Shown here piece after piece: positions 1-42,211 of a DNA stretch of 42,211 bases. The stretch's first letter is position 1. Each line of letters starts with the position of its first letter. The translations under genes were made by a program, and so were the position numbers. The DNA lies in the IMG/VR virus record IMGVR_UViG_3300037692_000076, positions 1 through 42,211 of that record; one strand, given 5' to 3'. Origin of the DNA: a virus. Taxonomy: Duplodnaviria > Caudoviricetes. The notes beneath the pieces were generated by a model. It was not told the origin of the DNA, searched no databases, and worked only from the letters and a program-made list of their open reading frames with translations.

Positions 1-524
1 GCAAGATAAGTTTACTATTTCCAGAATCCCGGCTATTTTCTAAGTTCTTCATTGTCGAAATCCTGTTTTAGTTTCCTATATTCCTTAAATGCTGCATTCA
101 ATTCATCCAAACTTACAGGCGGCCTATTTTCTGTATGCCGGAAATAGTTCAGCAGAATTATGCTATTGCGAAACCTATCCTGTGTCATCTTGGACTTTTC
201 AGTTAATTGCTTCATGTGCTTTATCAGAAAATCCGTGTCCTCTTTTTTCATTGTCAATACCTCAACCTCCGTAAACCCACAGCACAACAGTATCGATATA
301 GCCCGATCTAAATCAGTGTTGTATTCGGTTGAGTTTTCTCTCTTTGCTAACCTTGCATTCAAAGTATCTATGTAGGCTTCGCGCTCGTTAATTGCATTTA
401 CCAAATCTTCCAACATTTTCTTTGTTGCTTCCTTTTGTCCAAAAGTCATTTTTGCGGAAACCTCATGTAGGTATTGGCTGAACTTGGATAGCTTATCTTG
501 AATTGGAATCATTAGAAATTAGGT
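1..524. repeat. Diverged direct repeat of 40217..40740
   Basis: First 119 nt are identical to 40217..40335; about 28 substitutions counted by eye over 524 nt, no indels, mostly synonymous. Confidence 0.95.
33..512 (-). CDS. Hypothetical protein (159 aa) between initiator and helicase, allele A
   Basis: Intact ORF; differs from 40249..40728 by 4 conservative amino-acid changes. Confidence 0.85.
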   Translation of the reverse strand: MIPIQDKLSKFSQYLHEVSAKMTFGQKEATKKMLEDLVNAINEREAYIDTLNARLAKRENSTEYNTDLDRAISILLCCGFTEVEVLTMKKEDTDFLIKHMKQLTEKSKMTQDRFRNSIILLNYFRHTENRPPVSLDELNAAFKEYRKLKQDFDNEELRK

Positions 525-706
525 TGTCTTAAATCTATTTTTCGTATTTGAACTACGATTGTAAAGAATAAAAACGTTAATGAAAGATTATCTATAGTAT
601 ATGACACACCTTTCATTCTTAAATTCCCATTTCTTATTTTTGATGCAATAGGAATTAAATCAATTGTTAATTGAAATTCTATGAATATTCTATGAATTGC
701 TGTCAT
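512..706 (-). CDS. Small hypothetical protein of cassette A
   Basis: TAATG coupling to the next gene; distant homolog at 40728..40895 (IDLIP and C-terminal PNF). Confidence 0.7.
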   Translation of the reverse strand: MTAIHRIFIEFQLTIDLIPIASKIRNGNLRMKGVSYTIDNLSLTFLFFTIVVQIRKIDLRQPNF

Positions 707-1385
707 TTTTTTGGTTTTTAGGTTTATATATTCTATTCATTGACATTGATAAAGATTTCCCAAATGTTGATTTCCAGTTTATTTCTTTAACTTTTGATCT
801 TCGCTTATGATTCCAACCTTCATCAGTTGCCCAATATGTTTCACAAGCCTTTTTTATTGACATCTTAACGTTTATGTTTGGGTAGTACTCTTCCCACTTC
901 TCAATAAATTCATTATCCGCCATTATATTTATATATTCTTCTCTAAGAGTATTTAAGTATAAATCTTTATCTGTTCTCCACGTTGGTTCTTTATTAGTTA
1001 GTATATTATTTCCTTTAGTATTTATTTGTGGCGGGTTTTCCGTGTCCGGTTTTACCGTGTCCGGTTTTTGCCGTTCCGGTGAACTATCAATGTTTTCAGG
1101 TATTTCAAAAACATTGTAATCAATTCCTACATATTTACCGGATTCTCTTAACTCAACTTTTTGAATGTAACCACACTCTTCAAGTTCATTCATAGCAGAA
1201 TAAATACTTTCCTTACCTTCTTTTAAACATGCCGTTAATCCACTGATTGATAAATCCCAATTATCAGGTAATGAAAGCATGAATGATTGTAGTCCTTTAG
1301 CTTTAAGAGATAATTCTTTGTTTTTGAGATGGTGATTTGACATCACTGTGAAGTCCTTCGACTTTGCTACTATAATTCTATTCAT
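690..1385 (-). CDS. Phage replication initiator with N-terminal helix-turn-helix (cassette A)
   Basis: FTVMSNHHLKNKELSLKAKGL..LSLPDNW..ELEECGYI motif typical of HTH phage initiators; internal KPDT repeats; ATG at 1385 preferred over the TTG at 1436. Confidence 0.8.
   Translation of the reverse strand: MNRIIVAKSKDFTVMSNHHLKNKELSLKAKGLQSFMLSLPDNWDLSISGLTACLKEGKESIYSAMNELEECGYIQKVELRESGKYVGIDYNVFEIPENIDSSPERQKPDTVKPDTENPPQINTKGNNILTNKEPTWRTDKDLYLNTLREEYINIMADNEFIEKWEEYYPNINVKMSIKKACETYWATDEGWNHKRRSKVKEINWKSTFGKSLSMSMNRIYKPKNQKNDSNS
1031..1080. repeat. Putative origin iterons of cassette A
   Basis: CCGTGTCCGGTTTT at 1040 and 1055 (15-nt period) with partial copies on both sides, next to an AT-rich tract inside the initiator gene, as in lambda O-type origins. 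Confidence 0.7.
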
Positions 1386-1473
1386 TGGCTTAAAAAATAA
1401 ATCCCCTTTGGTTTCGGGGTGCAGCCCTACTCCCAAAGAGGTTAAAGTCTTTTTTGTTCCTGCACGAACGAAT

Positions 1474-1569
1474 ACAAATATACTCTTTATTCCGATATTA
1501 TTGAATATACATCTTACTTTTTATTGTAACAAATGAATATTCCTCCGGGTAATCCTGAACGAATTTGTT
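1474..1569. repeat. Direct repeat of 42116..42211
   Basis: 96 nt with one mismatch (1492 vs 42134); the last 77 nt are identical. Confidence 0.95.
1475..1482 (-). promoter_or_regulatory. Bacteroidota-type -7 promoter box upstream of the replication cassette
   Basis: TATATTTG on the minus strand (TAnnTTTG consensus); same box at 42117..42124. Confidence 0.6.
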
Positions 1570-2457: not shown

Positions 2458-3291
2458 TTATTTAATAAACTTTGATTGTTTCCACTTCGGTTTGCTCATA
2501 GTAAAATATGGCATTTCAGCATTCCAAAATTCGTAGCCCTGATACCATAGCTTCTCATCCAAGCAATACCGAAATGCTGTGAGTGTCTTTTCAAACTCAT
2601 CCTTTGCAGCTTCGCAGTAATCGCTTGGACAATGTATAACTACTGAATTGTACGGGGTTTCTTTTTCAACTACGATGAATACAAACTCCGGGAACTTGTA
2701 CGCGGTTTTATGGTAGCCAGTTAAATAGGCTCCGACCTGCAAATCATATTCCAATTCAGCAGCCTGTTTGAACCATTTGTCCGGTTCAGCGTTCGCAGTT
2801 GTTTTGAAGTCGCAAATGATTAGATGTTCCTCAATTTCACATTCAGCATCTACATATCCAATGATTGGAATCTCTGTTTTCTTGTCCGTCCATTCCAACT
2901 TCTTTTGGATTTTTGTAACGCTGTTGAGATACGGTTGACATAGTTCGTTTTCCTTAACTGATTCAGCAAGTATTAATGCCAGCCTATGAGTTTCGTCGCT
3001 AATAAGAGTTTTCTTATTGGCCTTGGCATCTTGTACCATACCAGCCCATGTTGCCTTGGCATCGTTCGAACGCCTTTCAAACTTCGTAAATACTTCGAAT
3101 TTGTCTTTAAACTTTTCAGGTTCAAAAACTAAGCATTCGGTAGCATTACCGATGGTGAATTCTTCTTTTTCTTCCCGAGGCTTTGTAATATACTCAATGT
3201 AATGCTTCGGGCTTTTACGGAAGGCTTTCAGACTTGAATAGCTTACCGGCCTTTTTTTAAGGTCTTCGAGTGTTAAGATTGGTATATACAT
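2458..3291 (-). CDS. PD-(D/E)XK exonuclease, RecE/exonuclease VIII-like (DUF3799-type)
   Basis: SYSSLK..SPKHY, GYVD..ICDFKTT, YDLQVGAY and FVFIVVEKETPY motifs; adjacent to an annealase. Confidence 0.85.
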   Translation of the reverse strand: MYIPILTLEDLKKRPVSYSSLKAFRKSPKHYIEYITKPREEKEEFTIGNATECLVFEPEKFKDKFEVFTKFERRSNDAKATWAGMVQDAKANKKTLISDETHRLALILAESVKENELCQPYLNSVTKIQKKLEWTDKKTEIPIIGYVDAECEIEEHLIICDFKTTANAEPDKWFKQAAELEYDLQVGAYLTGYHKTAYKFPEFVFIVVEKETPYNSVVIHCPSDYCEAAKDEFEKTLTAFRYCLDEKLWYQGYEFWNAEMPYFTMSKPKWKQSKFIK

Positions 3292-3983
3292 TAGATGAAC
3301 ATTTCAAGTATTCCCTCATAAAACTCAACCGTATTATTTCCGTGCGCTTCGGCTTCCAGTAGCTTGTTTCGAATAGCTTCGTTCATTTCCACATCTTGGC
3401 AGAATGATAGTTGCTTGCTGATTGCTGTTTTCAGATTGGCTATAATATCCTTATCGGTATACTCAACCACTCTTACAGATTTGAATTCCTCACCTCCGTA
3501 AATGTCCGAAGCAACTCCAAGTTCACTTGCGCACTTCTTTAGTGCATCGGTTGTGGCGGCCTTAAGATCGTTTCCAAGATCGAGAGGAGAATCCGAAGGC
3601 TGTTTTTTTCCCTTTCCTGCTGCATCGGTTATGTATTCAGTTTTGAATGCAATGTCAGACCGGCCAAATTGTTCTTTTACAATTGTTCTTTCTTTCACAT
3701 TTACGGTCAACCTGCCAAGTACGATACATTGCTTCGACTGCATATTGTATTCGAATTGTTTGATCTCAAACGACCAATCCCAACCGAATACCATGTTTAG
3801 TACTTTTTTAACGTATACGCCTGTCACGTAATCCCATTCTCCACCTCCTTTTGCCGGACGTGAATAGATGTGATTCTTTGGCGTTTCGGCTAACAGCATG
3901 TTAAGCTGCTTTGCATTTAGAATCGGGTTTTCTACCTTGGAAATCTCACTCAAAGAGATAACGGGTGTGTTTTTGTTTTCCAT
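3291..3983 (-). CDS. Rad52/Rad22-family single-strand annealing protein (Sak-like)
   Basis: YV..V...LN.VFG..W and KAATTDALKKCASELGV..DIY motifs. Confidence 0.85.
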   Translation of the reverse strand: MENKNTPVISLSEISKVENPILNAKQLNMLLAETPKNHIYSRPAKGGGEWDYVTGVYVKKVLNMVFGWDWSFEIKQFEYNMQSKQCIVLGRLTVNVKERTIVKEQFGRSDIAFKTEYITDAAGKGKKQPSDSPLDLGNDLKAATTDALKKCASELGVASDIYGGEEFKSVRVVEYTDKDIIANLKTAISKQLSFCQDVEMNEAIRNKLLEAEAHGNNTVEFYEGILEMFI

Positions 3984-4003
3984 ACTTACTTATTTTGGTT
4001 TCT

Positions 4004-4011
4004 CAAATATA
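4004..4011 (-). promoter_or_regulatory. -7 promoter box upstream of the recombination operon
   Basis: TATATTTG on the minus strand 20 nt before the Rad52-like start codon. Confidence 0.55.
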
Positions 4012-4028
4012 CTAATATATACTGAATA

Positions 4029-4244
4029 TTATAGCATTTGTTGCAATTCATTTTCGAAATCTTCGGGTAATCTTAGCTTTTTTGCAATGATAATTGCCTC
4101 ATTAATCGTATCATCCCAAAAGATTCTTTCCTCGTGAATGTATAACCGAAGTGATCGCTCAATCATTAACTTTTCAGAATCGGTCAAAGGCACAGGCCAG
4201 TCTATTGGCTTTTGTTCTTTTTGTTGGAGGGCTTTTTTTAGCAT
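4029..4244 (-). CDS. Hypothetical protein
   Basis: ORF tiles with neighbours. Confidence 0.6.
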   Translation of the reverse strand: MLKKALQQKEQKPIDWPVPLTDSEKLMIERSLRLYIHEERIFWDDTINEAIIIAKKLRLPEDFENELQQML

Positions 4245-4778: not shown

Positions 4779-4970
4779 TTATTGGTTGCGATTATCTTGT
4801 ATGTGATTTTCATAGATGCTTGTATTTGTTGATTTCAATTTTCTGCCTTTTATAATCGCATAGACAATAACAAGCGTACTTGCGCTAATTAGGAATGTGT
4901 ACAAAGGCCATACTGCGAAGAATCCACAGCATACCAAAACTACTGATATTATAATTGTCGACTTTTTCAT
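4779..4970 (-). CDS. Small membrane protein
   Basis: Two hydrophobic segments. Confidence 0.6.
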   Translation of the reverse strand: MKKSTIIISVVLVCCGFFAVWPLYTFLISASTLVIVYAIIKGRKLKSTNTSIYENHIQDNRNQ

Positions 4971-5107
4971 ACGCAGTCTTCGGCCATGGTGTAATAAAAG
5001 TTCGCTTTGTCTACTTGTTTTTTGTAATCTTTCCGACCGACTAGAATTCCGGCTCCAAAGGCTAAGGCTAACAATATAGCCACGATGATGATCGTTTGTT
5101 TTTTCAT
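4967..5107 (-). CDS. Small single-TM protein (46 aa, MKKQTIIIVAILLALAFGAGILVG...), not in ORF track
   Basis: Hand-translated; ATGA overlaps at both ends. Confidence 0.6.
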   Translation of the reverse strand: MKKQTIIIVAILLALAFGAGILVGRKDYKKQVDKANFYYTMAEDCV

Positions 5108-5268
5108 GGGTTCTTTATTTTAAAGTAGTTAATTTCCTTTTTCATTTCATCGATTAGCTTCTTTGCCGTCATTAAGATAATCCCGCAATAGTGGCCTTCG
5201 GATTGCCATACATAATAATGAGTTTCAAACTCATCAATAAACTTGATTTTTTCTTGTAGTGTCATCAT
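5104..5268 (-). CDS. Small hypothetical protein (MMTLQEKIKFIDEF...), not in ORF track
   Basis: Hand-translated; tiles between neighbours. Confidence 0.55.
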   Translation of the reverse strand: MMTLQEKIKFIDEFETHYYVWQSEGHYCGIILMTAKKLIDEMKKEINYFKIKNP

Positions 5269-5275
5269 GGCTTTA

Positions 5276-5488
5276 TTAGTTTTCGTAAACTACTTGGTAC
5301 ATTCCGGGTGCGAACATTCTTAAGCGAAGATTCATAATCCTGTTGAAATCCTTCATGAATTTAACATCTTCTGTTTGTGCTAATCGATTAATAAGCCTCT
5401 GCCTAAAATCTTCGGGCATTTCGCTATATACCCTTGTGTAGTATTCGGCTGCTGTGTGTTTTGTTATTGGTTGGCTGTAAAGTGTCAT
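5276..5488 (-). CDS. Hypothetical protein, first gene of the leftward early transcript
   Basis: ORF follows an AT-rich divergent promoter region. Confidence 0.6.
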   Translation of the reverse strand: MTLYSQPITKHTAAEYYTRVYSEMPEDFRQRLINRLAQTEDVKFMKDFNRIMNLRLRMFAPGMYQVVYEN

Positions 5489-5664: not shown

Positions 5665-6477
5665 ATGATAAATACACATGAATCAAAATTAGGGCAATCG
5701 GTTTATATGACTGAATTGTATGATTATTTAGGTTTAAATAAATCTAATTATTCTCATTTTGTAAAAGCAAATGTGTTGAATAATGCGTATTCTGAAATAA
5801 ATAAAGATTACTCGTTGTTCGGTACAAGTATTAATAATGTAGGTAAAAAAGGGCAATTCAGAATAGATTATTATATACATATTGACTTTGCAAAAAAACT
5901 TTGCATGGTTTCAAAAAGTGCAAAAGGCAATGAGATAAGGGATGAACTCGTAAAAATAACAAAGCAGGTTGAAACAGCATGTCTTGTTTCTCATCAACAG
6001 GTTTTAGATATTATAAAAATGATTAAAGTGTTTTCAGTTTACGAACATCGAAAATTAGCGCTTACTAAAAATGCTGAAAATTACGTTAATAATGCTTTAG
6101 CTATTCATCCCGAATACTCAAAAAACACCAACCTATTATACGGAAAATTTCACCAATGGAGAAATGAAGTATTGCAAACGGGTAAGGAGGTTTTATCAGA
6201 ACGCGTTAAAGAATATTGTCTAGTTGAAAGAAAGCGTATACCTGCGAAATTTACACAGGATGAGGCTTTAACATTAATGGGCGATTACGAACAAATAAAA
6301 AATGCTATTTGGGATTTACTTTGCAGCCAAAATAAAAGCGAAGAAATGATAAATAATATTTGCTCATTGGCTCATGATTTAGCAAAAGAGATGAAGCCAT
6401 TTTTAGAACGACTTAATCAAAGTAACTTATTTTTTAAAAAGATTGAATCAACAGATGTTAAGGCCATTTTGGATTAA
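5665..6477 (+). CDS. AntA/AntB-type antirepressor-like DNA-binding protein
   Basis: ELYDYLGL..YSHF..DY...DYYIHIDFAKKLCMVSKSAKGNEIR matches the AntA N-terminal pattern. Confidence 0.75.
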   Translation: MINTHESKLGQSVYMTELYDYLGLNKSNYSHFVKANVLNNAYSEINKDYSLFGTSINNVGKKGQFRIDYYIHIDFAKKLCMVSKSAKGNEIRDELVKITKQVETACLVSHQQVLDIIKMIKVFSVYEHRKLALTKNAENYVNNALAIHPEYSKNTNLLYGKFHQWRNEVLQTGKEVLSERVKEYCLVERKRIPAKFTQDEALTLMGDYEQIKNAIWDLLCSQNKSEEMINNICSLAHDLAKEMKPFLERLNQSNLFFKKIESTDVKAILD

Positions 6478-7081: not shown

Positions 7082-7450
7082 TTAATTTTTATTATAAATC
7101 ATTAATCCAAATGAAATAATCGAAATGATAACGCTTACAATTGCAATTATATACAGCATATTCTGACTTCCTCCTACCTTTGTTCCTTCCAGTTTTTCGA
7201 ACTTGGTTTCTAAATTTGTTACACGGTCATTTAATCCGTTGTACTTGCTTTCGCTTTCAGCCCTTGGCATTAATGTACGGCTTTGATCAGATAATGTATT
7301 TCTGAACTCGTTAACAGATTCAAAACGCTTTTCGGTGGCTATCTCGGCTTTCGTTACCGCCTTGTCCAGTGCCTTGAATTTAGCTTCAAAATACTTTTTA
7401 ATGGTTTTAACATTCCATTCCATTACTTCGATGTGTAATTGATTGTCCAT
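7082..7450 (-). CDS. Coiled-coil protein with C-terminal TM helix (lysis module)
   Basis: Heptad-like region then LYIIAIVSVIISIISFGLMIY. Confidence 0.6.
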   Translation of the reverse strand: MDNQLHIEVMEWNVKTIKKYFEAKFKALDKAVTKAEIATEKRFESVNEFRNTLSDQSRTLMPRAESESKYNGLNDRVTNLETKFEKLEGTKVGGSQNMLYIIAIVSVIISIISFGLMIYNKN

Positions 7451-8844
7451 TGACCACCATTACCACTACCATTCTGCCATTCTATTGTTGCACTATTACC
7501 TGTTATGGCTATAGTCGTAGGCACGGTTGTATATGTGCCATTCATGAATGTACGAAGCAAGGTTTTATTTGAGCCAGTTCCTTTATAAATGCGTATAATT
7601 TGTTTATATCCGAGATACGTTATCCCTCCGTCATATTTGAATTGTGTCACATTTAATGTAATTGATGATACATTTGGAACATAGATAGTCGATGTTTGAA
7701 AGCTTGTATTTTGCACAGGTATTTCAAACCCTTCATGGCTTAATATAGTACCTGATTTTTCAGTATAAACCTTTTCAATGAACCTATTTGGCGGTGTCGG
7801 ATGGTACGATATTGCTGTCGGTACGGTTATAATTCTATTACGTTCACTTGCGCCTGATCTGTATTCTTTTGAGCCTTTTGGATAGTAGAAGGCTACAATA
7901 TTATCAAATTGCATCCACTGTTTTATAGGGCTTGCAAATGATTTATCACCGCCTCCAAAGAAGTTATTAAGGTATACTTGCTCAATTAAATAGTTAGGGT
8001 TAAATCCGTTTACTACCTTGGCATCGACCTGTTGATAAACAAGTACTTTATTGTTGAAAACTTCAAGTAACCCGTTTGCCTTGTCGCCGTCATTTACCCG
8101 AAGTCTTATGGTTATATTTTGCCATTGTCCTTTTGTAATATTGGCTACATGTGTGCCGTATGGCCATCCCGATGAGTTGTACAACGCTCCTTTGAAATAG
8201 TTATATGTTGAATAGTTACCGTTTTGATTGAACAGAAACATTGAAACCCATCCGTCCGTATCTGTTTTATCGTTGTTTGGAATAGCAGTTGAACTCCCCC
8301 CGGCTAAACCTCCAAAGAATTTTCCGCCTTTGAACAGGTCGAAGTCAGCCGGGACATAAACATCCCAACTCAAAAACAATTCTTTGTACCCTTTATCTAA
8401 TGGAATGCGATAATTTCCAATACCTGAACTTGAACCTACATTGCCTTGGCCGTGGTAAACCTGTAATACTTTACCTCTACCCGTTACATTTTGTAACGTG
8501 TTACGATCATCGAACCAACCTTTTGAAAAGTATGGCCATGCCTGTGGTTTTGTTGCTGCATCGAAATTTTCAGACCATACGATATTAACCTCATTGATTG
8601 GCTCAATTGGAGGGATAACCGTATCGCAGTCATTTACTATAACCGTATCCGCAGGTAGTTTAATTAGGCTATCAATTATAGAAAGTGCCGATAAATAGCT
8701 GCGTTGGCACCAAGAATATTCTTTTTTCAGATTCTCATTAATAAGTATCAATGAATCGTATTCGGCTACTAACTTTTTGAGCGTTGGTTGCGAATAGCAT
8801 TGAATCATTAAGAATGTAAGTACTGTAAAGATTGTTGTTTTCAT
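7423..8844 (-). CDS. Secreted polysaccharide lyase-like protein (PL14-like jelly roll) with C-terminal CUB-like domain
   Basis: Signal-like N-terminus; FDLFKGGKFFGGL, GQWQNITIRLRVN..GKANGLLEV and FFGGGD motifs; C-terminal SGTILS..ITLNVTQF..IRIYKG..GNSATIEW..WTINY. Confidence 0.65.
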   Translation of the reverse strand: MKTTIFTVLTFLMIQCYSQPTLKKLVAEYDSLILINENLKKEYSWCQRSYLSALSIIDSLIKLPADTVIVNDCDTVIPPIEPINEVNIVWSENFDAATKPQAWPYFSKGWFDDRNTLQNVTGRGKVLQVYHGQGNVGSSSGIGNYRIPLDKGYKELFLSWDVYVPADFDLFKGGKFFGGLAGGSSTAIPNNDKTDTDGWVSMFLFNQNGNYSTYNYFKGALYNSSGWPYGTHVANITKGQWQNITIRLRVNDGDKANGLLEVFNNKVLVYQQVDAKVVNGFNPNYLIEQVYLNNFFGGGDKSFASPIKQWMQFDNIVAFYYPKGSKEYRSGASERNRIITVPTAISYHPTPPNRFIEKVYTEKSGTILSHEGFEIPVQNTSFQTSTIYVPNVSSITLNVTQFKYDGGITYLGYKQIIRIYKGTGSNKTLLRTFMNGTYTTVPTTIAITGNSATIEWQNGSGNGGQWTINYTSK

Positions 8845-20255: not shown

Positions 20256-20676
20256 TTTTTATAGTTTCTTGGATGTCTGGTATTACTATCTCTCCTAATA
20301 CCGGGATATTATTCGGCATAATACCGTAAATCCCGTCATATTTCATTTGTAGATCGGTTGCCTTTTTGTCATTCGAATCAATATACAGCCCGTCATTTCT
20401 TTCCTCTGTGTAAAAGCCTTTGTAAAAATTGCCTTCGTTATGCAAATCAGGGGTATACAAATCGGCTTTACCTCCTAAAGATATTTTTTCCTGTGCATAT
20501 CCTTCATCTGATAATTCAGGGCTTAACGAAATACCATCCTTACTCAAACCTTCCTCTAGTTGTGAAGTGTTCAGGTCGATAATCTCATCAGAATGTGAGG
20601 CCATCGCCTGAACACAAATTTTATCAAGGCTGTTTTGAATACTCGTTATATTCCGTTGTAAATCATCGAAAATCAC
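20236..20676 (-). CDS. Putative tail completion/neck protein
   Basis: QLEEG..DG, DLHNEGNFY and KY.GIYG motifs; position in the tail module. Confidence 0.6.
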   Translation of the reverse strand: MIFDDLQRNITSIQNSLDKICVQAMASHSDEIIDLNTSQLEEGLSKDGISLSPELSDEGYAQEKISLGGKADLYTPDLHNEGNFYKGFYTEERNDGLYIDSNDKKATDLQMKYDGIYGIMPNNIPVLGEIVIPDIQETIKNDITRL

Positions 20677-21572
20677 TACGCAGTGGCCAGTGTAAGTATA
20701 TCAGACTGAAACAAATCGGCAGCCGTTGCGATTACCTGAACAGTACCGGCAGTAATATCTACGCCTGTAACAGTATAGCGACCGGGAATAGTAGTGCTTT
20801 CAACAGCCGTAACAGTTTCAACCGCTCCCCCCTGATCGATTACTTTCCAGTTTCCGGCAGTGGTTAGATCGGTTATAGGGATGCTAACAGCCGTACCGTC
20901 CGGGCTAAATTGCTGCGATGGTTTGTAAGCAACGTCTACCACAAAGGCAAATGTTGCAACTGTACCAACTTGTGTAAGAGTTACCAAAGTAGCTGGTTTA
21001 ATAGTCGTTGCAGCACGCCATACAGGGCTAACATATACGCCTTTTTTGTCGAGTTCTTCTGCATCTAGGTACTGAAATTCGATAGGGGTAAATTCTGGGT
21101 CTGCATCTGTTGCCGGCATTTGTTTGCCTACGTGGAAATAATCCAATTGAATACCAGTAATTGTTAAATCATCGTTCTTTATACCAAGAATGTTATTATT
21201 CCTGTCAACGATGAATAAATCCCATTTCTTGTTGTTATAAGTCCGGGCTATTTTGTGCTGATCTTTGGTAAGAGAGAAAAGAACTCTCATTCCGGGAATT
21301 CCTTCGCCCAAAAATAGTTTCTTGCCTATTCCGGTAGTGTGAATTCTATCTTCGGAACTCTGCGCTTCGTATGAATCAGCTTCCATAATTGGGAAAAGAG
21401 AACCTGCTGCAATACCTGCAAGAACCTCGGCACTGTCTGCAAAGTCCTCTCCATCTGTAAACGAAAACCCTCTTTTCGCAAGTAGTAATCCTTGTGGTAC
21501 GGTTATAGGCGATAGTTGCTCACATGGTGCCCCTATCCCGTAAACTGCATTTAAACATAATAATTCAGCCAT
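20676..21572 (-). CDS. Major tail tube protein with C-terminal Ig-like domain
   Basis: Position and size; paralogous to the N-terminus of 21592..23448. Confidence 0.7.
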   Translation of the reverse strand: MAELLCLNAVYGIGAPCEQLSPITVPQGLLLAKRGFSFTDGEDFADSAEVLAGIAAGSLFPIMEADSYEAQSSEDRIHTTGIGKKLFLGEGIPGMRVLFSLTKDQHKIARTYNNKKWDLFIVDRNNNILGIKNDDLTITGIQLDYFHVGKQMPATDADPEFTPIEFQYLDAEELDKKGVYVSPVWRAATTIKPATLVTLTQVGTVATFAFVVDVAYKPSQQFSPDGTAVSIPITDLTTAGNWKVIDQGGAVETVTAVESTTIPGRYTVTGVDITAGTVQVIATAADLFQSDILTLATA

Positions 21573-21591
21573 GATATTTATTTATTAATTG

Positions 21592-23448
21592 TTAAACTTC
21601 GATTAGTTCTATACTGTTTATTATAAGTGTGGCATTATATTTTGAGAATAGCATTCTAATATCAAGCATACCCAAACCTCCCGCAACAAATGTCGATTCA
21701 AACGTGCTAGGGTATGACAACCCTATAGTATCTAAAGGATGATTTACTAATTGGTTTTCAAAATCAGTTACATAAAGTGAAACAAATCTATCTGCACCAC
21801 TTCCAAAATTGGTAGCATACCATTTAATCCTTAATTTGTATGTCGAGCCTATATTTATATTTGCAAATGTGCCAATACCCATTGGGTTACTATTGGCTAC
21901 AATTTTCTTTACATATTGATTCATGCCTGATAACCCTGTCGCTGTCTTAACTTCGAAAAGTATACCGTCTACAGTCTGACTTGGTTTGAAGAAATCGGCC
22001 AATCCGTTCTCATCGGTATCAACAAAATCAGTTGTGCCAACACCTTTACCATTTAGAATTAATGCCTGTGTTGAGTAGTCGTAATTTGAAGCCCCGGCAT
22101 ATACACCTTGGCTCATCGTTAATACTCCTTTAACCCTGCCTATAACAAGCATGGAATATACGCCTGTTGTTTCTGCGAAGCTTGATTTTGAAAGCGTTCC
22201 GTTTACCTCATCGGTAAAAGTAAATGCTGCAATGAGTAAATCTTCTACAAGGTTATCGGTTATTACCTCTCTTACTTCGAATTTTACGGAATATATGTCG
22301 TTTGCCGTTGTGCCGTTTAGTTCGAAATTACTTGCGTATACATCAATGATTGCAAAATATTCATCGGTTCCGGTCACCACACTGTCATCTACAGAAATAT
22401 CTCCACTTGTTAAATCTGTTGTAGTTATTATTTCATAACGTCCGGACGAAACCTCATCGACACTCGTTATAGTTACTGCACCATTTGTATTGTCTGTCAT
22501 TGTGAAGTCTGCAAGTACTAACCCTGTGTATGGTGTGCCACTAACTGAATAGTTAATGTCAACTTTGAATTTACGAATAGTTTCAAAGGCATAATTACTA
22601 AACGTCACTGTTACCTCTGTTACAATGTATTGGGCAACCGAATAATATTGGTTTGTATCAAGTATCAGATTGCCGGTATTTAATTGGCCGGATGCAACAA
22701 GTAAGTATTCACCGAATGCTATTTCAGTAAGGCTTGTAATTGTTAAACTTGCTAAATCATCATCGAGCGAAAAATCTTCGGCCGTTAGTCCGCTTATCTC
22801 AATTCCGAACTGGCTATCCACTACGGTAAATTGTAGTGTTGTACTTGTTTCACCTATAATTGTCATATCGCAAAAGATGAGGTTTATATCCGTTGGCCTA
22901 AAATCAGTTGCTCCAATAGCCCCGTTTATATCAAACTCATCTGGCTCCAACAGGTTTAACTTTATTTGTGTCCAAGCAACGTCCTTTCCAAATGTCTTTT
23001 TTTCAATTGCTAATAGCTCAACCGTTAACCCATGTATTGCACTACCTAAATAAGTGCCGTATACGTTATTATTCACATCTTGAAAGAACACTTTGCAAGG
23101 TGCTTCGGACAATGTTTGAATCAATTGATGGTAATCGAGGCGATACTTCGACCGGAATAAAAATTTGTACTTTCCTTTGTATATCTGTATTTCAATGTCC
23201 TGATCGTCTGTGTTATAAATTGCCTCTTCGGAATTGTTATCGATTTCCTGTAAGTCTAGCAATTGCATCAATGATTTAGATTTCATTCCTGTATTCCAAC
23301 TTGCAGTAGAAACAAATGCAGCATCATTGGCAAAGGAATAATCATCGAATGATATGTACATAGCAACTATCTGATCGAAGTTGTTTTCGTTCTTGCATGG
23401 GTAACCAGTACCTTTTTTGCTATGTTCGAATTGGCCTATCATGGACAA
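21592..23448 (-). CDS. Tail-tube paralog extended with repeated Ig-like domains and a C-terminal beta-sandwich
   Basis: FFQDVNNNVYG aligns with FIVDRNNNILG of the tube protein; three GL...DF...D repeats. Confidence 0.65.
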   Translation of the reverse strand: MSMIGQFEHSKKGTGYPCKNENNFDQIVAMYISFDDYSFANDAAFVSTASWNTGMKSKSLMQLLDLQEIDNNSEEAIYNTDDQDIEIQIYKGKYKFLFRSKYRLDYHQLIQTLSEAPCKVFFQDVNNNVYGTYLGSAIHGLTVELLAIEKKTFGKDVAWTQIKLNLLEPDEFDINGAIGATDFRPTDINLIFCDMTIIGETSTTLQFTVVDSQFGIEISGLTAEDFSLDDDLASLTITSLTEIAFGEYLLVASGQLNTGNLILDTNQYYSVAQYIVTEVTVTFSNYAFETIRKFKVDINYSVSGTPYTGLVLADFTMTDNTNGAVTITSVDEVSSGRYEIITTTDLTSGDISVDDSVVTGTDEYFAIIDVYASNFELNGTTANDIYSVKFEVREVITDNLVEDLLIAAFTFTDEVNGTLSKSSFAETTGVYSMLVIGRVKGVLTMSQGVYAGASNYDYSTQALILNGKGVGTTDFVDTDENGLADFFKPSQTVDGILFEVKTATGLSGMNQYVKKIVANSNPMGIGTFANINIGSTYKLRIKWYATNFGSGADRFVSLYVTDFENQLVNHPLDTIGLSYPSTFESTFVAGGLGMLDIRMLFSKYNATLIINSIELIEV

Positions 23449-33699: not shown

Positions 33700-34026
33700 T
33701 TAAGAATTACCGGAACCGGAACCGTAACCGTCACCGGAACCGTAACCGGAACCGTCACCGGAACCGTCACCGGAACCGTCACCGGAACCGGAACCGGAAC
33801 CGTAACCGTAACCGTCACCGGAACCGGAACCGTCACCGGAACCGTCACCGGAACCGTCACCGTAACCGTAACCGGAACCGTAACCGTAACCGTCACCGGA
33901 ACCGTAACCGTCACCGGAACCGTAACCGGAACCGTAACCGGAACCGTCACCGGAACCGTCACCGGAACCGTCACCGGAACCGTCACCGGAACCGTAACCG
34001 TAACCGGAATTTATTATTGTTTCCAT
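33700..34026 (-). CDS. Glycine-rich (Gly-Ser/Tyr/Asp)n repeat protein
   Basis: ATG start overlapping the upstream gene; 50 Gly-X dipeptides. Confidence 0.7.
   Translation of the reverse strand: METIINSGYGYGSGDGSGDGSGDGSGDGSGYGSGYGSGDGYGSGDGYGYGSGYGYGDGSGDGSGDGSGSGDGYGYGSGSGSGDGSGDGSGDGSGYGSGDGYGSGSGNS
33709..34008. repeat. Tandem array of 50 hexamers (ACCGGA/ACCGTA/ACCGTC)
   Basis: 300 nt composed only of these three hexamers. Confidence 0.97.
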
Positions 34027-35788: not shown

Positions 35789-35997
35789 AGCAGCGATCTT
35801 AAAAGGTTAATCTTTTCTTTGGTTTCACTTATCAACATGTTTTCAACATTGAAGGATTGCTTGTTGCGAATCTTGTACGACTTCGCGCCTTGGTACGTGG
35901 TTAGCTTTTCTTCTAGTTCTACGATCTTGGATAGTAGTCGCCTTCTTGTTTTACCCTGTAGTATTTTCATTTTAAATTTATAATGAGAAATTGGCAA
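35785..35997 (-). CDS. Small coiled-coil hypothetical protein
   Basis: ORF; true start probably MKILQG. Confidence 0.5.
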   Translation of the reverse strand: MPISHYKFKMKILQGKTRRRLLSKIVELEEKLTTYQGAKSYKIRNKQSFNVENMLISETKEKINLLRSLL

Positions 35998-36670
35998 TTG
36001 AATATATTATTTGCTTTTCATCCTTAATCATTCCTATTGATATGCCTTGGCTTATGAATTGCTCAATTTTAGTAATCTTTTTTAATTCGGCGGATGTAGC
36101 TAAATTTCGCATACCCGTTAAATGCCTACCAAAAACCCGTTCATTTATAGCAATTGCATACTTTTTATAATCAGGGTTTTGAACTATTTTTTTGATAGAT
36201 GTATTCATTGGTCTAAACTCATCTCCAGCCTCAATCCTATCGAAAATTATGCTATCAGTTATAAATGAAATAACCTTAGCATATATCATAGGATTTAATT
36301 CTAATGCAATTGCTACCCATATATAAGGATCACACATTACTGTTCTATTAGATGCTTTCCCTGTAGTTTTCCAAACTTGTAATCCTTTTAACACTTTTGT
36401 AATTCCTTCATTTTTACACATTCCAATAAAACCCGAGATTTCCGTTTTTATAATATTTCTATCCTTTAATAGATAATAAATACGTTCTTGCATTTTTGAA
36501 CCCTGCATTATAGATGAAATATCGAGATTACTCCACCCATATTGCCACCTTGCTATCTCATAAGATTTTTGAAGTTCAGTAAGACTTAAAAAACCTGTTT
36601 TTGTTTCTTGCCTAATAGTGATACCGAATAATTCTCGGTCTTTACTTTTCATTACAATGTTCGTTTCCAT
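35978..36670 (-). CDS. KilA-N domain DNA-binding protein
   Basis: IRQETKTGFLSLTEL and CDPYIWVAIALELNP..YAKV motifs; own TACTTTTG box at 36689-36696. Confidence 0.7.
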   Translation of the reverse strand: METNIVMKSKDRELFGITIRQETKTGFLSLTELQKSYEIARWQYGWSNLDISSIMQGSKMQERIYYLLKDRNIIKTEISGFIGMCKNEGITKVLKGLQVWKTTGKASNRTVMCDPYIWVAIALELNPMIYAKVISFITDSIIFDRIEAGDEFRPMNTSIKKIVQNPDYKKYAIAINERVFGRHLTGMRNLATSAELKKITKIEQFISQGISIGMIKDEKQIIYSIANFSL

Positions 36671-36739
36671 ATCTTATATTGTTTTTTACAAAAGTACACA
36701 TATAATTTTATGTTATGAGTAATATTGTAAATATAACTA

Positions 36740-37222
36740 CTAATAAAATCCCACTTCCCTATAAAATTCAACAAAGTTTTTGTCATCCAATGTTAACAGA
36801 ATAACATCGAAATGTACCCGTGCATGCTTTTGAACAAATGACATATAAGCAGCAAATTGCCCTATTTCTCTATCGGCTGTTGAATAGCTTATAATTTCAA
36901 TGATTGTGTCCATTCCTGGAAACCATCTAAATTCCTTAATCAATGGCTTTATTCGTGTCCAAAGTTCGGGTTTTAGTATTCCGGTTATGTATTCGTCATC
37001 CTTCGGTAAGCCTAGAGCCCGATACTGGAAGTGTAATTCGTTTTTGTCACGGCCTGTTTGCTTTGAAATAGCGTTTATCCAAATCCAATACAAAGAATTT
37101 TGATCGAGATTTCGCTTCATCTTTATTTCCCGAATCTCAACCCATGCCTCTTTTTCAATCAGCTTTTCGAAGTACTCACGGGCTACTTGAACTTTGTATT
37201 TGTTTTTTAGGTCGAGTTTCAT
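36740..37222 (-). CDS. NinB/Orf-like recombination accessory protein
   Basis: KRNLDQNSLYW.W...IS..TG and STA....F..Y motifs. Confidence 0.65.
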   Translation of the reverse strand: MKLDLKNKYKVQVAREYFEKLIEKEAWVEIREIKMKRNLDQNSLYWIWINAISKQTGRDKNELHFQYRALGLPKDDEYITGILKPELWTRIKPLIKEFRWFPGMDTIIEIISYSTADREIGQFAAYMSFVQKHARVHFDVILLTLDDKNFVEFYREVGFY

Positions 37223-37224
37223 GA

Positions 37225-37428
37225 CTATAGTATTTCTAAAACTATAAATTGTTTATCGATCGAGCGGCATGAATTATAATCCCATATATACAAATGATCT
37301 TGCATAATTCCGATCGTTATTCTTTCGATTGGAACATCATGTTTAATCGATAGGCTTTCTAAATATGATTTAATTTCTGCTTTCAGAACCTCATCTACTT
37401 TTGATAGGAATGTATCTTTATCGGTCAT
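37225..37428 (-). CDS. Hypothetical protein
   Basis: ORF tiles with neighbours. Confidence 0.55.
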   Translation of the reverse strand: MTDKDTFLSKVDEVLKAEIKSYLESLSIKHDVPIERITIGIMQDHLYIWDYNSCRSIDKQFIVLEIL

Positions 37429-37663
37429 GACGATCTTCGACTTTAATTATAATATTGCAATATTCAGCTATCCATTTGGTTTCCGTACCATCATTTGATT
37501 TTATATAAACTGAATTGTTATCCATAAAACCATAATCAATAACCTCTGATTGACCTTTATGCCATTCTTCCCCAGTAGGTATTCTAGGGGAAACTATATC
37601 GCCTTTTCTTAATCCGTAAAATCTAGTCCTAGATTTATTTCTATTGTCTATTTCTGTTTTCAT
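37418..37663 (-). CDS. Hypothetical protein (SH3-like)
   Basis: LRKGDIV beta-barrel-like pattern. Confidence 0.6.
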   Translation of the reverse strand: MKTEIDNRNKSRTRFYGLRKGDIVSPRIPTGEEWHKGQSEVIDYGFMDNNSVYIKSNDGTETKWIAEYCNIIIKVEDRHDR

Positions 37664-37693
37664 TCTGCTAATATACTATTATTTATCGAATAT

Positions 37694-38632: not shown

Positions 38633-38658
38633 ATAGTTAAAAATTATGTTAGTTACAA

Positions 38659-38862: not shown

Positions 38863-38886
38863 TTGATTTAAAAATTAGGTTTAATA

Positions 38887-39135: not shown

Positions 39136-39170
39136 AGCTATTTATATTAAAAATTAGGTTTATAAAATCT

Positions 39171-39374: not shown

Positions 39375-39377
39375 ATT

Positions 39378-40268
39378 CTAAAAATTTGGTTTCTCAATCT
39401 TACTCTTCGCCTTAAATAATTCCGGCTCTGTTACTTCAAAATCTAAATCAATTTTCGGCAATCCGTACTCGTTTATCAAAAATCCAATCGGTTCGAAATC
39501 TATCCCTCTCATATCTCTAGGCTTAATTATCGAATATCCGTTGAATTCTTTACTTTTCTCTACCTCGATGATACTTTCGGCCTTGTTCTGTATTTCAGTG
39601 CCTAAATGACCCCTTAAACCGCCTTCATCGCCTTTATTCAAATGTAGGATAACATTGATATGACAATTATAGTCCTCTGTCCACCTCATCAACTTACTTG
39701 TTATCTCTGTGGCCTGCGCCTCATCGTTTATACTTGTAACTAAATCTCGAATACCATCGATAACAACAAAGCCCGGGTTCTTTACGGTTCTGATAACATA
39801 ATCAATGTATTGGATTCTTTCAAAGGTTGTAAGCGATCGTAAGGCATGCACCTGTAAGTTATTCGGTTGCTTTTCGTAGCCGCATAGTCTAATTATTCGG
39901 CTGTTGTTCATCGCTGCATCATAGCGGCCTTGCTCGGTATCAAAGAAAATATTTGTCCGGCCTTCGCATTTACCGATAAACGTATGCCGAATATCGTTCA
40001 TAATGCACTCACTCATGAAAATAGCCGATGCAAATGTTTTCCGGGATTTTTGGCGGCCAACCGTAGCGCTAAAGTTGCCAAATGTTCCAATCCTTTTTAG
40101 TCCTTGTTCCTGCCTAATCTCTAAACATGGGAACGGTTTAACCTCTTTTACGTCATAATTTATCAAATGTTTTTTTATGAGCGAATCAATGTCTATCGGC
40201 TGATCGACCCAATCAGGCAAGATAAGTTTACTATTTCCAGAATCCCGGCTATTTTCTAAGTTCTTCAT
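39378..40268 (-). CDS. AAA/RecA-fold replicative helicase-like ATPase (AAA_25/SF4-like)
   Basis: Walker A variant GRQKSRKT, FDTEQG, Walker B VVIDGIRDL, H.NKG...RGHLG. Confidence 0.8.
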   Translation of the reverse strand: MKNLENSRDSGNSKLILPDWVDQPIDIDSLIKKHLINYDVKEVKPFPCLEIRQEQGLKRIGTFGNFSATVGRQKSRKTFASAIFMSECIMNDIRHTFIGKCEGRTNIFFDTEQGRYDAAMNNSRIIRLCGYEKQPNNLQVHALRSLTTFERIQYIDYVIRTVKNPGFVVIDGIRDLVTSINDEAQATEITSKLMRWTEDYNCHINVILHLNKGDEGGLRGHLGTEIQNKAESIIEVEKSKEFNGYSIIKPRDMRGIDFEPIGFLINEYGLPKIDLDFEVTEPELFKAKSKIEKPNF

Positions 40269-40728
40269 TGTCGAAATCCTGTTTTAGTTTCCTATATTCC
40301 TTAAATGCTGCATTCAATTCATCCAAACTTACAGGAGGCCTATTTTCTGTGTGCCGGAAATAGTTCAGTATAATTATGCTATTGCGAAACCTATCCTGTG
40401 TCATCTTGGACTTTTCAGTTAATTGCTTCATGTGCTTAAGCAAGAAATCTGTGTCCTCTTTTTTCATAGTCAATACCTCAACCTCCGTAAACCCACAACA
40501 CAAAAGAATTGATATAGCCCGATCTAAATCGGTATTGTATTCTGTTGAGTTTTCTCTCTTTGCTAACCTTGCATTTAAAGTATCTATGTAGGCTTCTCGT
40601 TCGTTAATGGCATTTACCAAATCCTCCAACATTTTCTTTGTTGCTTCCTTTTGGCCAAAGGTCATTTTTGCGGAAATCTCATGAAGGTATTGGCTGAACT
40701 TGGATAGCTTATTTTGAATTGGTATCAT
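40249..40728 (-). CDS. Hypothetical protein (159 aa), allele B
   Basis: Near-identical to 33..512. Confidence 0.85.
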   Translation of the reverse strand: MIPIQNKLSKFSQYLHEISAKMTFGQKEATKKMLEDLVNAINEREAYIDTLNARLAKRENSTEYNTDLDRAISILLCCGFTEVEVLTMKKEDTDFLLKHMKQLTEKSKMTQDRFRNSIIILNYFRHTENRPPVSLDELNAAFKEYRKLKQDFDNEELRK

Positions 40729-40895
40729 TAGAAATTAGGTAAATCTATTCTTGATTTATGTCCAATAACTATTTCAAACCCTATACAAAGTATTTTAAGT
40801 GTATAAGAATCTTCTTCATTACGTTTTTCAATCCAAATTAATGGAATTAAATCAATGTTAATTGATAAATAAATACGAAGTCTTTTAATTTTCAT
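40728..40895 (-). CDS. Small hypothetical protein of cassette B (55 aa, MKIKRLRIYLSINIDLIP...RIDLPNF), not in ORF track
   Basis: Hand-translated; positional and sequence homolog of 512..706. Confidence 0.7.
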   Translation of the reverse strand: MKIKRLRIYLSINIDLIPLIWIEKRNEEDSYTLKILCIGFEIVIGHKSRIDLPNF

Positions 40896-40900
40896 AATGA

Positions 40901-41671
40901 TTAATTTTTAGTGAATTTGTCTATAAGCCAATTATTAACAGTCAAATAAAGATTTTTTTTACCTTGGTAATATTTCTTTGTGTTATCAATTGATAACAGA
41001 ATTTGTTTAATGTCCTTTCTCTCAATTTTAGCTTTATTGTATAACTTATAAAAATCATCTCTACTTATCTGATTAGGTATAGATAGTAACCCAGATAATT
41101 TATTACCAGTTTCATTTTCTCCGAATAAGAATTCAATAAAACCTATGTACATATCATCTTCATCTAAATTAGCTATCTGTTCATCGTAGTATTTACTATA
41201 CTTTACTTTACTTTCCTTTACTATACTCTTTTCTATTCTATTCTTATCTATATCTACAGCGTTACGTAACGTTACAGTATCATTACTTAATTCTAACTGT
41301 CTATGTTTCTGAACTCTTAATCTATTTTTTTCCCTTATTTTATCCAAAGCATCTACATTTTGATGCTTTTCCCAATTGCAAATACCAATGAAATTTTGAT
41401 TGATTTCTATCATTCCAAACTTTTCAAATGAACCTAAAGCAAGTTTAATTGTAGAAATTGGACGGTTGAAAATAGTTGATAACATTTCGTCTGTGTAAGG
41501 CATATTTTCAGTAAGGTATATTTGACCCTTATCATTAATCTTTCCTGCTAGTGTTAGCAGCTTAATCCATATTACAAAGATTGCATCCCTATCAGGTAGG
41601 GAATCCAAAACTTTTATTTTCTCATCATCGAAAATATCCGTTTTAATTTTTATCCATGATATATTGGCCAT
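40901..41671 (-). CDS. Phage replisome organiser (Phage_rep_org_N-type) replication initiator (cassette B)
   Basis: WIKIKTDIFDDEKIK..IWIKLL.LAG..PYTDEML..NWEKHQN..R.RVQKHR motifs. Confidence 0.88.
   Translation of the reverse strand: MANISWIKIKTDIFDDEKIKVLDSLPDRDAIFVIWIKLLTLAGKINDKGQIYLTENMPYTDEMLSTIFNRPISTIKLALGSFEKFGMIEINQNFIGICNWEKHQNVDALDKIREKNRLRVQKHRQLELSNDTVTLRNAVDIDKNRIEKSIVKESKVKYSKYYDEQIANLDEDDMYIGFIEFLFGENETGNKLSGLLSIPNQISRDDFYKLYNKAKIERKDIKQILLSIDNTKKYYQGKKNLYLTVNNWLIDKFTKN
41205..41286. repeat. Putative origin repeats of cassette B
   Basis: Overlapping palindromes CGTTACGTAACG and GTAACGTTAC (41260-41275) next to TTCTA/TACTT-skewed repeats inside the initiator gene. Confidence 0.55.
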
Positions 41672-42011
41672 ATCTAATTTGATTTAAAAGTGGATTATAT
41701 GATTGAATTAATCTTATTTCTTCATTGTAGAAGTTGTCACAATATTTAAAATAAATATGAGGGTTTGTATGATATTCTTTTCTTATAAAAGTTCTTTTTT
41801 CATGGCAGATTAACCTGTTTCTTAATGCAGTAGTACTACCTATATATAATATTTCTATAGGTTTAAATTTAAGACTAGCAAATAAACAGTATACACCTGG
41901 TTTATTAACTGGTTTAACAAAATTATTACCTTGTCCAGTACATGTTAACCAATCGTTTAACTCAATGTCAAAAAATTCAAATTGTTCTTTTTTAAACCAA
42001 TCACTATACAT
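41643..42011 (-). CDS. GIY-YIG nuclease
   Basis: PGVY...LYIGST..LRNRL..H...E..LIQSYNPLLN. Confidence 0.85.
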   Translation of the reverse strand: MYSDWFKKEQFEFFDIELNDWLTCTGQGNNFVKPVNKPGVYCLFASLKFKPIEILYIGSTTALRNRLICHEKRTFIRKEYHTNPHIYFKYCDNFYNEEIRLIQSYNPLLNQIRYGQYIMDKN

Positions 42012-42211
42012 AACACCAGTTATTATTTAATACCAGTTTTTTGAGGAAGTGGAGTAGGAAACTGGTTATAACCTACTCCACTGATAAGATACCGGCTTGC
42101 AATTCCGATAATTGCACAAATATACTCTTTATTTCGATATTATTGAATATACATCTTACTTTTTATTGTAACAAATGAATATTCCTCCGGGTAATCCTGA
42201 ACGAATTTGTT

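What the first reader, a model, noticed from the sequence alone, without database searches (positions are those of the whole stretch)
525..1473. Two interchangeable replication-initiator/origin cassettes at one locus (A: 525-1473; B: 40741-42115)
Seen: both contig ends have the same left flank (1-524 vs 40217-40740, about 28 mostly synonymous substitutions) and the same right flank (1474-1569 vs 42116-42211, one mismatch). Between them the content differs. A (949 nt) has an HTH initiator with CCGTGTCCGGTTTT iterons. B (1375 nt) has a GIY-YIG gene plus an unrelated replisome-organiser initiator with GTTAC/GTAAC repeats. Each cassette ends in its own diverged version of one small gene. Established: lambdoid initiators carry their origin internally and are exchanged as modules. 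Inference: two co-occurring phage variants (circles of 40,216 and 40,642 bp) share the whole backbone and helicase but differ in origin specificity. The exact 77-nt and 119-nt end matches equal common assembler k-mer sizes, so having both on one contig is most likely an unrolled assembly bubble. A terminally redundant heterozygote from headful packaging, or a genuine two-replicon genome, is the less likely alternative.
Basis: partly seen in the sequence, partly recalled or inferred. Interest (0 to 1): 0.8.

Follow-up and report, generated by a model that had tools for sequence, protein, structure and literature searches.

The report
Two phage strains, swapped replication starters
This contig joins two related sediment phage strains that carry unrelated genes at one spot, each predicted to start DNA copying from its own built-in origin; the join is likely an assembly artefact, and such swaps are well known in phages.

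Summary
In detail: same flanks, different cassettes. Public-run contigs support the allele model. In the probable source run, cassette A has depth 24.4 and cassette B 5.8-6.0. In a second study one 6,360-nt contig carries B alone between both flanks. So the window is most likely a major A strain with the B cassette of a minor strain attached at its end; a two-origin genome is not supported. They differ by 4-7% where compared and at several other gene slots, so the 40,642-bp B circle is not a real genome. Both initiators are known phage types (HTH_36; Phage_rep_org_N). Their linker repeats behave as DNA-level motifs across homologues, consistent with origins inside the genes. Related Bacteroidota-type phage loci put other initiators, with reshuffled N- and C-terminal domains, in the same slot. 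Verdict: an assembly chimera that reveals a real but familiar kind of replication-module swap. No origin function was tested.

The parts
1..524 (.). Left flank, major (A) strain haplotype; 1-119 is identical to 40217-40335
   Evidence: X1 contigs 1-359 (depth 22.8) and 330-1522 (24.4) match with 0 other letters
33..512 (-). 159-aa all-helical protein of unknown function between initiator cassette and ATPase (A copy); candidate loader/adaptor by position only
   Evidence: 23 hits at E<=0.001, itself included; pLDDT 89; no fold match
512..706 (-). 64-aa small ORF of cassette A
   Evidence: 38% identical to 40728-40895
690..1385 (-). Initiator A: N-terminal HTH_36 (phrog_4707 type), repeat linker, C-terminal domain shared with L124; an upstream TTG at 1436 would give 248 aa
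1030..1079 (-). 15-nt-period repeat array in initiator A (encodes PxxxK pentapeptides); predicted iterons
1386..1473 (-). Predicted 5' leader of cassette A; hairpin not more stable than shuffles
   Evidence: z -0.98
1475..1482 (-). TATATTTG, a Bacteroidota-type -7 box match in the shared flank; the cassette boundary lies 2 nt downstream. Predicted promoter, no canonical -33 box seen
   Evidence: consensus recalled, and present as a term in 18 papers (listing only)
1474..1569 (.). Right flank shared with 42116-42211
   Evidence: X1 contig 1493-2616 starts at the first base after the last mismatch
39378..40268 (-). AAA_25 / RecA-like ATPase, likely helicase; major-strain copy
   Evidence: no PDB sequence match
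40217..40335 (.). 119-nt block identical in both strains; likely point where the assembly crosses from the A to the B haplotype
40249..40728 (-). 159-aa ORF, B-strain copy (97.5% identical to A copy)
40728..40895 (-). 55-aa small ORF of cassette B
40901..41671 (-). Initiator B: N-terminal Phage_rep_org_N, repeat linker, C-terminal domain shared with L111, L127, L104
41206..41275 (-). GTAAC/GTTAC array (41260-41275) followed by a purine-rich tract (41206-41245, 34 of 40 purines on the coding strand); predicted origin
41643..42011 (-). 122-aa likely GIY-YIG nuclease domain, overlapping the start of initiator B
   Evidence: no Pfam/NCBIfam hit
42012..42115 (-). Predicted 5' leader of cassette B with a stable hairpin
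   Evidence: z -4.47, 0 of 500 shuffles as stable
42116..42211 (.). Right flank, B copy, with the same TATATTTG box (42117-42124)

Best explanation
The window likely is an assembly chimera of two co-occurring strains of one roughly 40-kb tailed phage, probably of a Bacteroidota host, that carry non-homologous genes at one slot, each predicted to be a replication initiator with its own internal origin. Positions 1 to about 40,216 are the major strain with cassette A (shown: X1 contigs match with no other letters). The last 2 kb are the minor strain's cassette B (shown: a quarter of the depth, and whole on a separate-study contig). The assembler likely crossed haplotypes in the 119-nt block where they are identical. 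Mechanism, inferred from known initiator-in-origin phages: a promoter in the shared right flank would drive the cassette; the N-terminal winged-helix domain would bind the repeats in its own gene's linker and melt the purine-rich tract beside them; the C-terminal domain would hand over to the 159-aa protein and the AAA_25 ATPase or to host replication proteins. Because protein and binding sites sit in one gene, the cassette can be swapped as a unit by homologous recombination in its flanks; the phage encodes Sak/Rad52-like and RecE-like proteins.
For: Depth in run X1 (probable source): A 24.4, B 5.8 and 6.0; two-haplotype stretches sum to 30.2 (flank), 31.2 (37667-38069), 29.2 (2587-2962) and 24.2 (near 36800). 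An X1 contig at depth 24.4 joins 40740 to 42116 without B. One 6,360-nt X2 contig runs 37663-38246, 39379-42211, then 1474-2220, 2458-3275 and 3987-4097, replacing 525-1473 by 1375 other letters. The B-type flank letters travel with minor alleles at other bubbles in X1, X2 and X3. DNA-level repeats: 17 of 20 non-redundant B homologues have 3 or more GTAAC/GTTAC in the 150-nt linker, against 0.10 per 150 nt elsewhere, in two reading frames (41 and 21). In 41 of 46 A homologues that could be scored, 150 of 236 linker Thr/Ser/Ala codons end in G against 317 of 1395 elsewhere, whichever residue is coded. Same slot in relatives: L089 has a third initiator type before an orf159 homologue, the ATPase and RuvC; L111, L124 and L127 (ATPases 69-73% identical) carry A-type (L124) or B-type (L111, L127) C-termini on other N-termini, with linker repeats spaced 17/17/23 (L089) and 22/11 (L124). 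Precedent: PMC5499656 passages (origin embedded in the 80alpha, SPP1 and lambda initiator genes).
Against: Depths are per-contig means from assembled runs, not read mapping, and the tool warns that they are not copy numbers. Minor-allele depths in X1 range from 2.6 to 10.4, so more than two strains may be present. No long read spans either genome. X1 may be the source run and X2 is of the same year and habitat, so they may be one campaign. No origin or initiator activity was tested. A's repeat period (15 nt) is a multiple of three and codes a family-wide peptide repeat, so part of it may be protein-driven; the homologous genes are not independent samples. Only 5 of 160 ATPase loci gave a tblastn hit to initiator A, initiator B or orf159, and the profile of A's family hit none. 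Helicase activity of the ATPase is inferred from weak hits.
Confidence: 0.88

Rival explanations
1. A true recombinant exists in the sample: the major-strain backbone has acquired cassette B by a crossover in the 119-nt identical block, and the contig end records that genome.
For: The window does join A-type ATPase sequence to B-type flank sequence; the phage encodes single-strand annealing and exonuclease genes; minor-allele depths vary from 2.6 to 10.4.
Against: B depth (5.8-6.0) matches minor-haplotype depth at nearby bubbles (5.2, 5.8), leaving little room for B on the major backbone; in X2 and X3 the B flank is joined to a diverged ATPase region (35 and 24 other letters).
Confidence: 0.06
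2. One genome carries both cassettes (two origins), or the contig is a terminally redundant heterozygous virion genome.
For: Both cassettes lie on one contig; the small terminase is of the P22 gp3 family (PF16677), which packages headfuls with terminal redundancy (recalled).
Against: A:B depth is about 4:1; each cassette is bridged to both flanks on its own (X1 for A, X2 for B); B travels with its own haplotype. A rare heterozygous virion would not set a consensus contig (inference).
Confidence: 0.02
3. Why the swap spreads (not exclusive with the best explanation): cassette B is a selfish homing unit whose GIY-YIG nuclease cuts the A-type allele or a rival origin during co-infection and drives conversion.
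For: B carries a likely GIY-YIG gene and A has none; HNH genes sit directly upstream of the initiator in L124 and L108; a GIY-YIG-superfamily nuclease that cuts an origin and selects for replicon exchange is described for ICP1/PLE (PMC8263062 passages).
Against: The protein is 122 aa with no appended DNA-binding domain seen; L089, L111 and L127 show no nuclease directly upstream of the initiator; B is the minority in X1; there is no sign of recent conversion, since flanks differ by 5%.
Confidence: 0.12

Closest known systems
Initiator-in-origin phage replication modules: S. aureus 80alpha ORF20, SPP1 G38P, lambda O (PMC5499656, passages read)
   Same: Initiator gene with repeats in its middle, followed by a partner gene and a helicase-type gene; recombination genes (Sak, exonuclease) nearby.
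   Different: Neither initiator was shown to be homologous to those three proteins; the partner (159 aa) has no family or fold match; the ATPase is of a Bacteroidota AAA_25 type; no function tested.
Exchangeable replication regions within one phage group: Eru1-13 and lambdoid types of Stx phages (PMC8044961, PMC8951638, abstracts read); S. thermophilus phage replication modules (PMC8470116, passages read)
   Same: Unrelated replication genes occupy one slot among otherwise related phages.
   Different: Here only the initiator cassette changes while the downstream partner and ATPase are kept at about 95% identity; the host is probably Bacteroidota; no integrase was found.
PLE replicon exchange and the Odn nuclease (PMC8263062, passages read)
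   Same: Origin and origin-binding domain change together; N- and C-terminal domains of the initiator evolve as separate modules; a GIY-YIG-type nuclease is in the picture.
   Different: PLE keeps one C-terminal domain and its origin is intergenic; here both domains are replaced and the predicted origin is intragenic; the nuclease here has no RepA-like binding domain.
Pfam Phage_rep_org_N (PF09681, TIGR01714) and HTH_36 (PF13730; phrog_4707)
   Same: N-terminal domains score above the curated cut-offs; linker repeats match those of the families.
   Different: The C-terminal domains match no library family and were found only in a few related phage loci.

Membership tests
Assembly chimera of two strains (allelic bubble) | A plus B depth close to shared depth; each below it | tested here: met
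   24.4 + 5.8 = 30.2; other two-haplotype stretches 24-31 (contig means, not reads)
Assembly chimera of two strains (allelic bubble) | Each cassette linked alone to both flanks | tested here: met
   X1 contig 330-1522 for A; X2 6,360-nt contig for B
Assembly chimera of two strains (allelic bubble) | No molecule carries both cassettes | not testable with these tools
   No raw or long reads were offered; all three runs are kept as contigs
   4-7% differences and several gene replacements on the B contig
Two-replicon phage genome | A and B at equal, full depth | tested here: not met
   About 4:1 in X1; an X2 contig joins the flanks without A
Phage replisome organiser (PF09681/TIGR01714), initiator B | N-terminal domain above curated cut-off | tested here: met
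   164.9 bits vs 23.3; 136.6 vs 49.8
HTH_36 phage initiator (phrog_4707 type), initiator A | N-terminal HTH domain above cut-off and initiator-family hits | tested here: met
   27.4 bits vs 25; phrog_4707 E 6.8e-17
Initiator-in-origin module | DNA-level repeats in the gene's linker | tested here: met
   Frame-independent motif in B family; G-ending codon bias in A family
Initiator-in-origin module | Initiator binds the repeats; cassette supports autonomous replication | not testable with these tools
   Needs binding and plasmid-replication assays
Initiator-in-origin module | Downstream helicase loader or helicase | tested here: inconclusive
   AAA_25 above cut-off, weak primase/helicase PHROG hits; orf159 unassigned
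GIY-YIG nuclease | Family profile match and fold | tested here: inconclusive
   No Pfam/NCBIfam hit; Atlas models TM 0.59-0.68, one of 8 rows over the naming bar; motif read by eye
GIY-YIG homing endonuclease | Cuts the cognate allele that lacks it | not testable with these tools
   Needs cleavage or co-infection assay
Integrating temperate (lambdoid) phage | Integrase gene | tested here: not met
   No PF00589 or PF07508 match in the record; other recombinase families not searched

The most novel reading that the evidence does not exclude
These phages have a plug-and-play initiator slot: an uncharacterised 150-aa partner and an AAA_25 ATPase accept initiators with wholly unrelated C-terminal domains, N-terminal origin-binding domains are shuffled with their iterons, and nucleases riding at the front of some cassettes drive the turnover by cutting rival origins. 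The A/B pair would be a natural, near-isogenic test of how origin specificity is swapped in Bacteroidota phages.
Probability: 0.15. Interest if true: 0.55.

Novelty: new member of a known kind. Interest (0 to 1): 0.28.

Why it matters
Practically, the record is not one genome: it hides two strains and fails to be called circular, a caution for catalogues built from short reads. Biologically, it adds a clean example, in a poorly studied host group, of replication initiators being exchanged while the downstream partner and ATPase stay. If the cassettes work with the same partners, the pair would let one ask how unrelated initiator tails load the same replication machinery. Module exchange itself is well documented.

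Tried and rejected
Single-protein scans of viral contigs for orf159, initiator A and the ATPase found no relatives; alignments were needed. A locus scan with the orf159 family could not run because the alignment is too diverged, so the genomic context of most of its members is unseen. The DNA search of 5 million assemblies found no near copy of 37000-42211. Fold searches of the orf159 model gave no match (Foldseek best E 0.85; VIA best Z 5.8, helical noise), and its family is not clearly related to the 150-aa proteins of L111/L124/L127 (probability 13%). A-type, B-type and L089-type C-terminal domains show no profile similarity (0.2%, 2.8%, 0.1%; very shallow alignments). A word-based search with B's C-terminal domain found only itself; the Atlas gave unnamed clusters for A's. 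The ATPase profile has no PDB sequence match. Rejected: the small cassette gene as an obligatory adaptor, since L089, L111, L124 and L127 have the initiator directly against the 150-aa gene. Rejected: the 77/119 k-mer argument as evidence. Rejected: a shared leader RNA; a GAGTAG word occurs in both leaders but in none of six relatives' upstream regions, and A's hairpin is not significant. Lack of cover of A in X2/X3 bins is not counted beyond the X2 contig that joins across it. X3 (word share 0.16) gave only short contigs; it is used only for linked letters. Two look-ups of earlier scan findings returned nothing. Paper searches showed no paper on such a swap in Bacteroidota phages among the listed hits; the library lacks most subscription papers, so this is not proof of absence.

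Full report
Observation. The window ends repeat each other as described. Positions 1-524 and 40217-40740 differ at 28 letters, the first at 120; 1474-1569 and 42116-42211 differ only at 1492. Between these flanks lie 949 nt (A) and 1375 nt (B). All genes there are on the minus strand. In reading direction A is: leader, initiator A (690-1385), 64-aa ORF, 159-aa ORF. B is: leader, 122-aa likely GIY-YIG gene, initiator B (40901-41671), 55-aa ORF, 159-aa ORF, then the AAA_25 ATPase (39378-40268). The initiators do not align; the small ORFs are 38% identical; the 159-aa copies differ at 22 synonymous and 4 non-synonymous codons.

The phage. The window encodes small and large terminase, portal, major capsid, tape measure, endolysin, RecE-like exonuclease, Sak/Rad52-like protein, NinB and RuvC. 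No tyrosine integrase or serine recombinase domain was found. Named relatives of the ATPase come from Bacteroidota and Ignavibacteriales, and from Flavobacterium and Olleya phages, so the host is probably in or near Bacteroidota (inference). The record is classed as linear and 81% complete, but joining the flanks gives a 40,216-nt circle with cassette A.

Are A and B alleles? Three sediment runs hold this DNA, all as assembled contigs; X1 may be the source, and X1 and X2 share year and habitat. In X1 one contig covers 330-1522 with no other letters at depth 24.4, and so links A to both flanks. Laid on the other end, it joins 40740 to 42116 without B. B is covered at 5.8 (40546-41659) and 6.0 (41676-42164). 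Where both haplotypes are laid, depths sum to 30.2 in the flank, 31.2 at 37667-38069, 29.2 at 2587-2962 and 24.2 near 36800. In X2 a single 6,360-nt contig at depth 5.9 runs 37663-38246, 39379-42211 and on into 1474-2220, 2458-3275 and 3987-4097, with 1375 other letters in place of 525-1473. These depths are contig means, not read mapping, but a 4:1 ratio with each cassette bridged alone is what alleles predict and a two-origin genome does not.

Do they share the backbone? No. The X2 contig differs from the window at 42 of 584 letters (37663-38246), 31 of 747 (1474-2220), 53 of 818 (2458-3275) and 4 of 111 (3987-4097). It has 35 other letters over 39379-42211. Its flank letters equal the window's B copy, and B's four proteins occur letter for letter on further contigs, so most of the 35 likely fall in the ATPase gene; X3 shows 24 over 39790-40402. 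It also lacks 2221-2457, has 746 other letters in place of the Sak gene (3276-3986) and 312 in place of 38247-39378. A minor X1 contig (depth 5.8) skips 35980-36749. So B belongs to a second strain, and the window is most likely the major strain plus the last 2 kb of the minor one. The likely crossing point is the 119-nt identical block 40217-40335. Minor-allele depths in X1 run from 2.6 to 10.4, so further strains are possible, and a true recombinant cannot be excluded without reads.

Are they initiators with origins? Initiator B passes the curated cut-offs for the phage replisome-organiser N-terminal domain. Initiator A passes HTH_36 and hits replication-initiation PHROGs; its phage matches include several annotated as replication or DnaD proteins. 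For B, 80 loci were fetched and reduced to 20 non-redundant genes; 17 of 20 have three or more GTAAC/GTTAC in the 150-nt linker against 0.10 per 150 nt elsewhere, and the plus-strand motif falls in two reading frames (41 and 21 times); 2 of the 20 have none and 1 has one, showing GTCAC-type repeats instead. B has three copies, then a purine-rich tract. For A, 80 loci gave 46 non-redundant genes; 40 of 46 have 9-mer repeats in the linker, nearly all spaced in multiples of 15 nt. That spacing fits a peptide repeat, so I tested codons. In the 41 genes whose linker could be delimited (5 dropped), 150 of 236 Thr/Ser/Ala codons end in G against 317 of 1395 elsewhere, spread over all three residues; 37 of 41 genes show the excess. 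In A itself 6 of 9 linker xCN codons end in G against 4 of 36 elsewhere. The genes are related, so the formal p value (5e-34) overstates the case, but the DNA word is conserved where the residue is not. This supports iterons without proving them.

Is the slot variable elsewhere? I fetched 160 loci around ATPase relatives. Five gave tblastn hits to the cassette-side proteins: L124 to A's C-terminus; L111, L127 and L104 to B's; L089 to orf159. A profile of A's family hit none. I listed ORFs for 25 hand-picked loci; the output was cut and about 15 were seen. Several are integrative elements or other phages without this layout. L089 has a third initiator (HTH_36, phrog_678), an orf159 homologue (30%), the ATPase (47%) and RuvC. 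L111, L124 and L127 share a 150-aa gene and ATPases 69-73% identical, yet carry DUF6291 with a B-type tail, phrog_2514 with an A-type tail, and phrog_2514 with a B-type tail. Their linkers hold allele-specific repeats, spaced 17/17/23 in L089 and 22/11 in L124, which are not multiples of three. So the A/B alternation of C-terminal domains recurs in a second phage group, on few examples.

Boundaries. The right break falls 2 nt after TATATTTG on the coding strand, a match to the Bacteroidota -7 promoter box (consensus recalled; the term stands in 18 papers, listing only). There are 31 such matches on that strand and no canonical -33 box here, so the promoter is only predicted. The left break falls at the overlap of the small gene's stop and orf159's start. 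Both are places where homologous recombination would leave a working operon (inference).

How it likely works. Shown: two strains, one slot, unrelated genes of initiator families, DNA-level linker repeats. Inferred from known systems (PMC5499656, passages on 80alpha ORF20, SPP1 G38P and lambda O): each protein binds repeats in its own gene and opens the adjacent tract, then recruits helicase. Unknown: whether orf159 (confident helical model, no fold match) is a loader, and whether the ATPase is the replicative helicase. Why strains differ here is open: drift among equivalent modules, escape from origin- or initiator-directed defence, or nuclease-driven homing (about 0.12).

Comparison and verdict. 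Unrelated replication modules at one slot are known for Stx phages (abstracts of PMC8044961 and PMC8951638), S. thermophilus phages (passages of PMC8470116) and PLE satellites (passages of PMC8263062). No supplements were read. This is a new member of that kind, exposed by an assembly chimera. Interest 0.28; the plug-and-play slot with nuclease drive would merit 0.55 at probability 0.15.

Noticed in passing
window 3276-3986: The Sak/Rad52-like gene is replaced by 746 other letters in the minor strain (X1 depth 7.9, X2), a second allele swap in the replication/recombination region.
   Followed up: partly
window 35980-36749 and from 5602: A 230-aa gene (35978-36670) is skipped by a minor X1 contig, and minor-strain contigs diverge at 5602 just before the AntA antirepressor gene (5665-6477). 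Each gene has its own TAnnTTTG box upstream (36696, 5640), like promoter-bearing inserts.
   Followed up: partly
window 38247-39378: Five small ORFs between the ATPase and RuvC are replaced by 312 other letters on the X2 contig.
   Followed up: no
window 33700-34026: Gly-Ser-Gly-Asp/Tyr repeat ORF (108 aa) with internal tandem DNA repeats.
   Followed up: no
window 7423-8844: 473-aa protein with a hydrophobic N-terminus and a polysaccharide lyase 14 domain (E 1e-18), next to the lysis genes; possible depolymerase.
   Followed up: no
window 20676-21572 and 21592-23448: Two adjacent ORFs in the tail region appear by eye to share an N-terminal domain, possibly paralogous major tail proteins; no PHROG hit.
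   Followed up: no
window 1035-1069 and 41192-41227: Unrelated contigs in X1/X2 match only these 35-nt linker stretches, suggesting that the linker words are shared with other phages.
   Followed up: no
window 4801-5400: No X1 contig was laid here although X2 and X3 cover it with many other letters; the tool read about 90% of X1 and filters some records, so this is unexplained rather than a finding.
   Followed up: no
L104:3304-5816, L108:3377-5789: Initiators followed directly by a ~580-aa fusion with the ATPase at its C-terminus and, by eye, a primase-polymerase-like N-terminus, without a 150-aa gene between.
   Followed up: no
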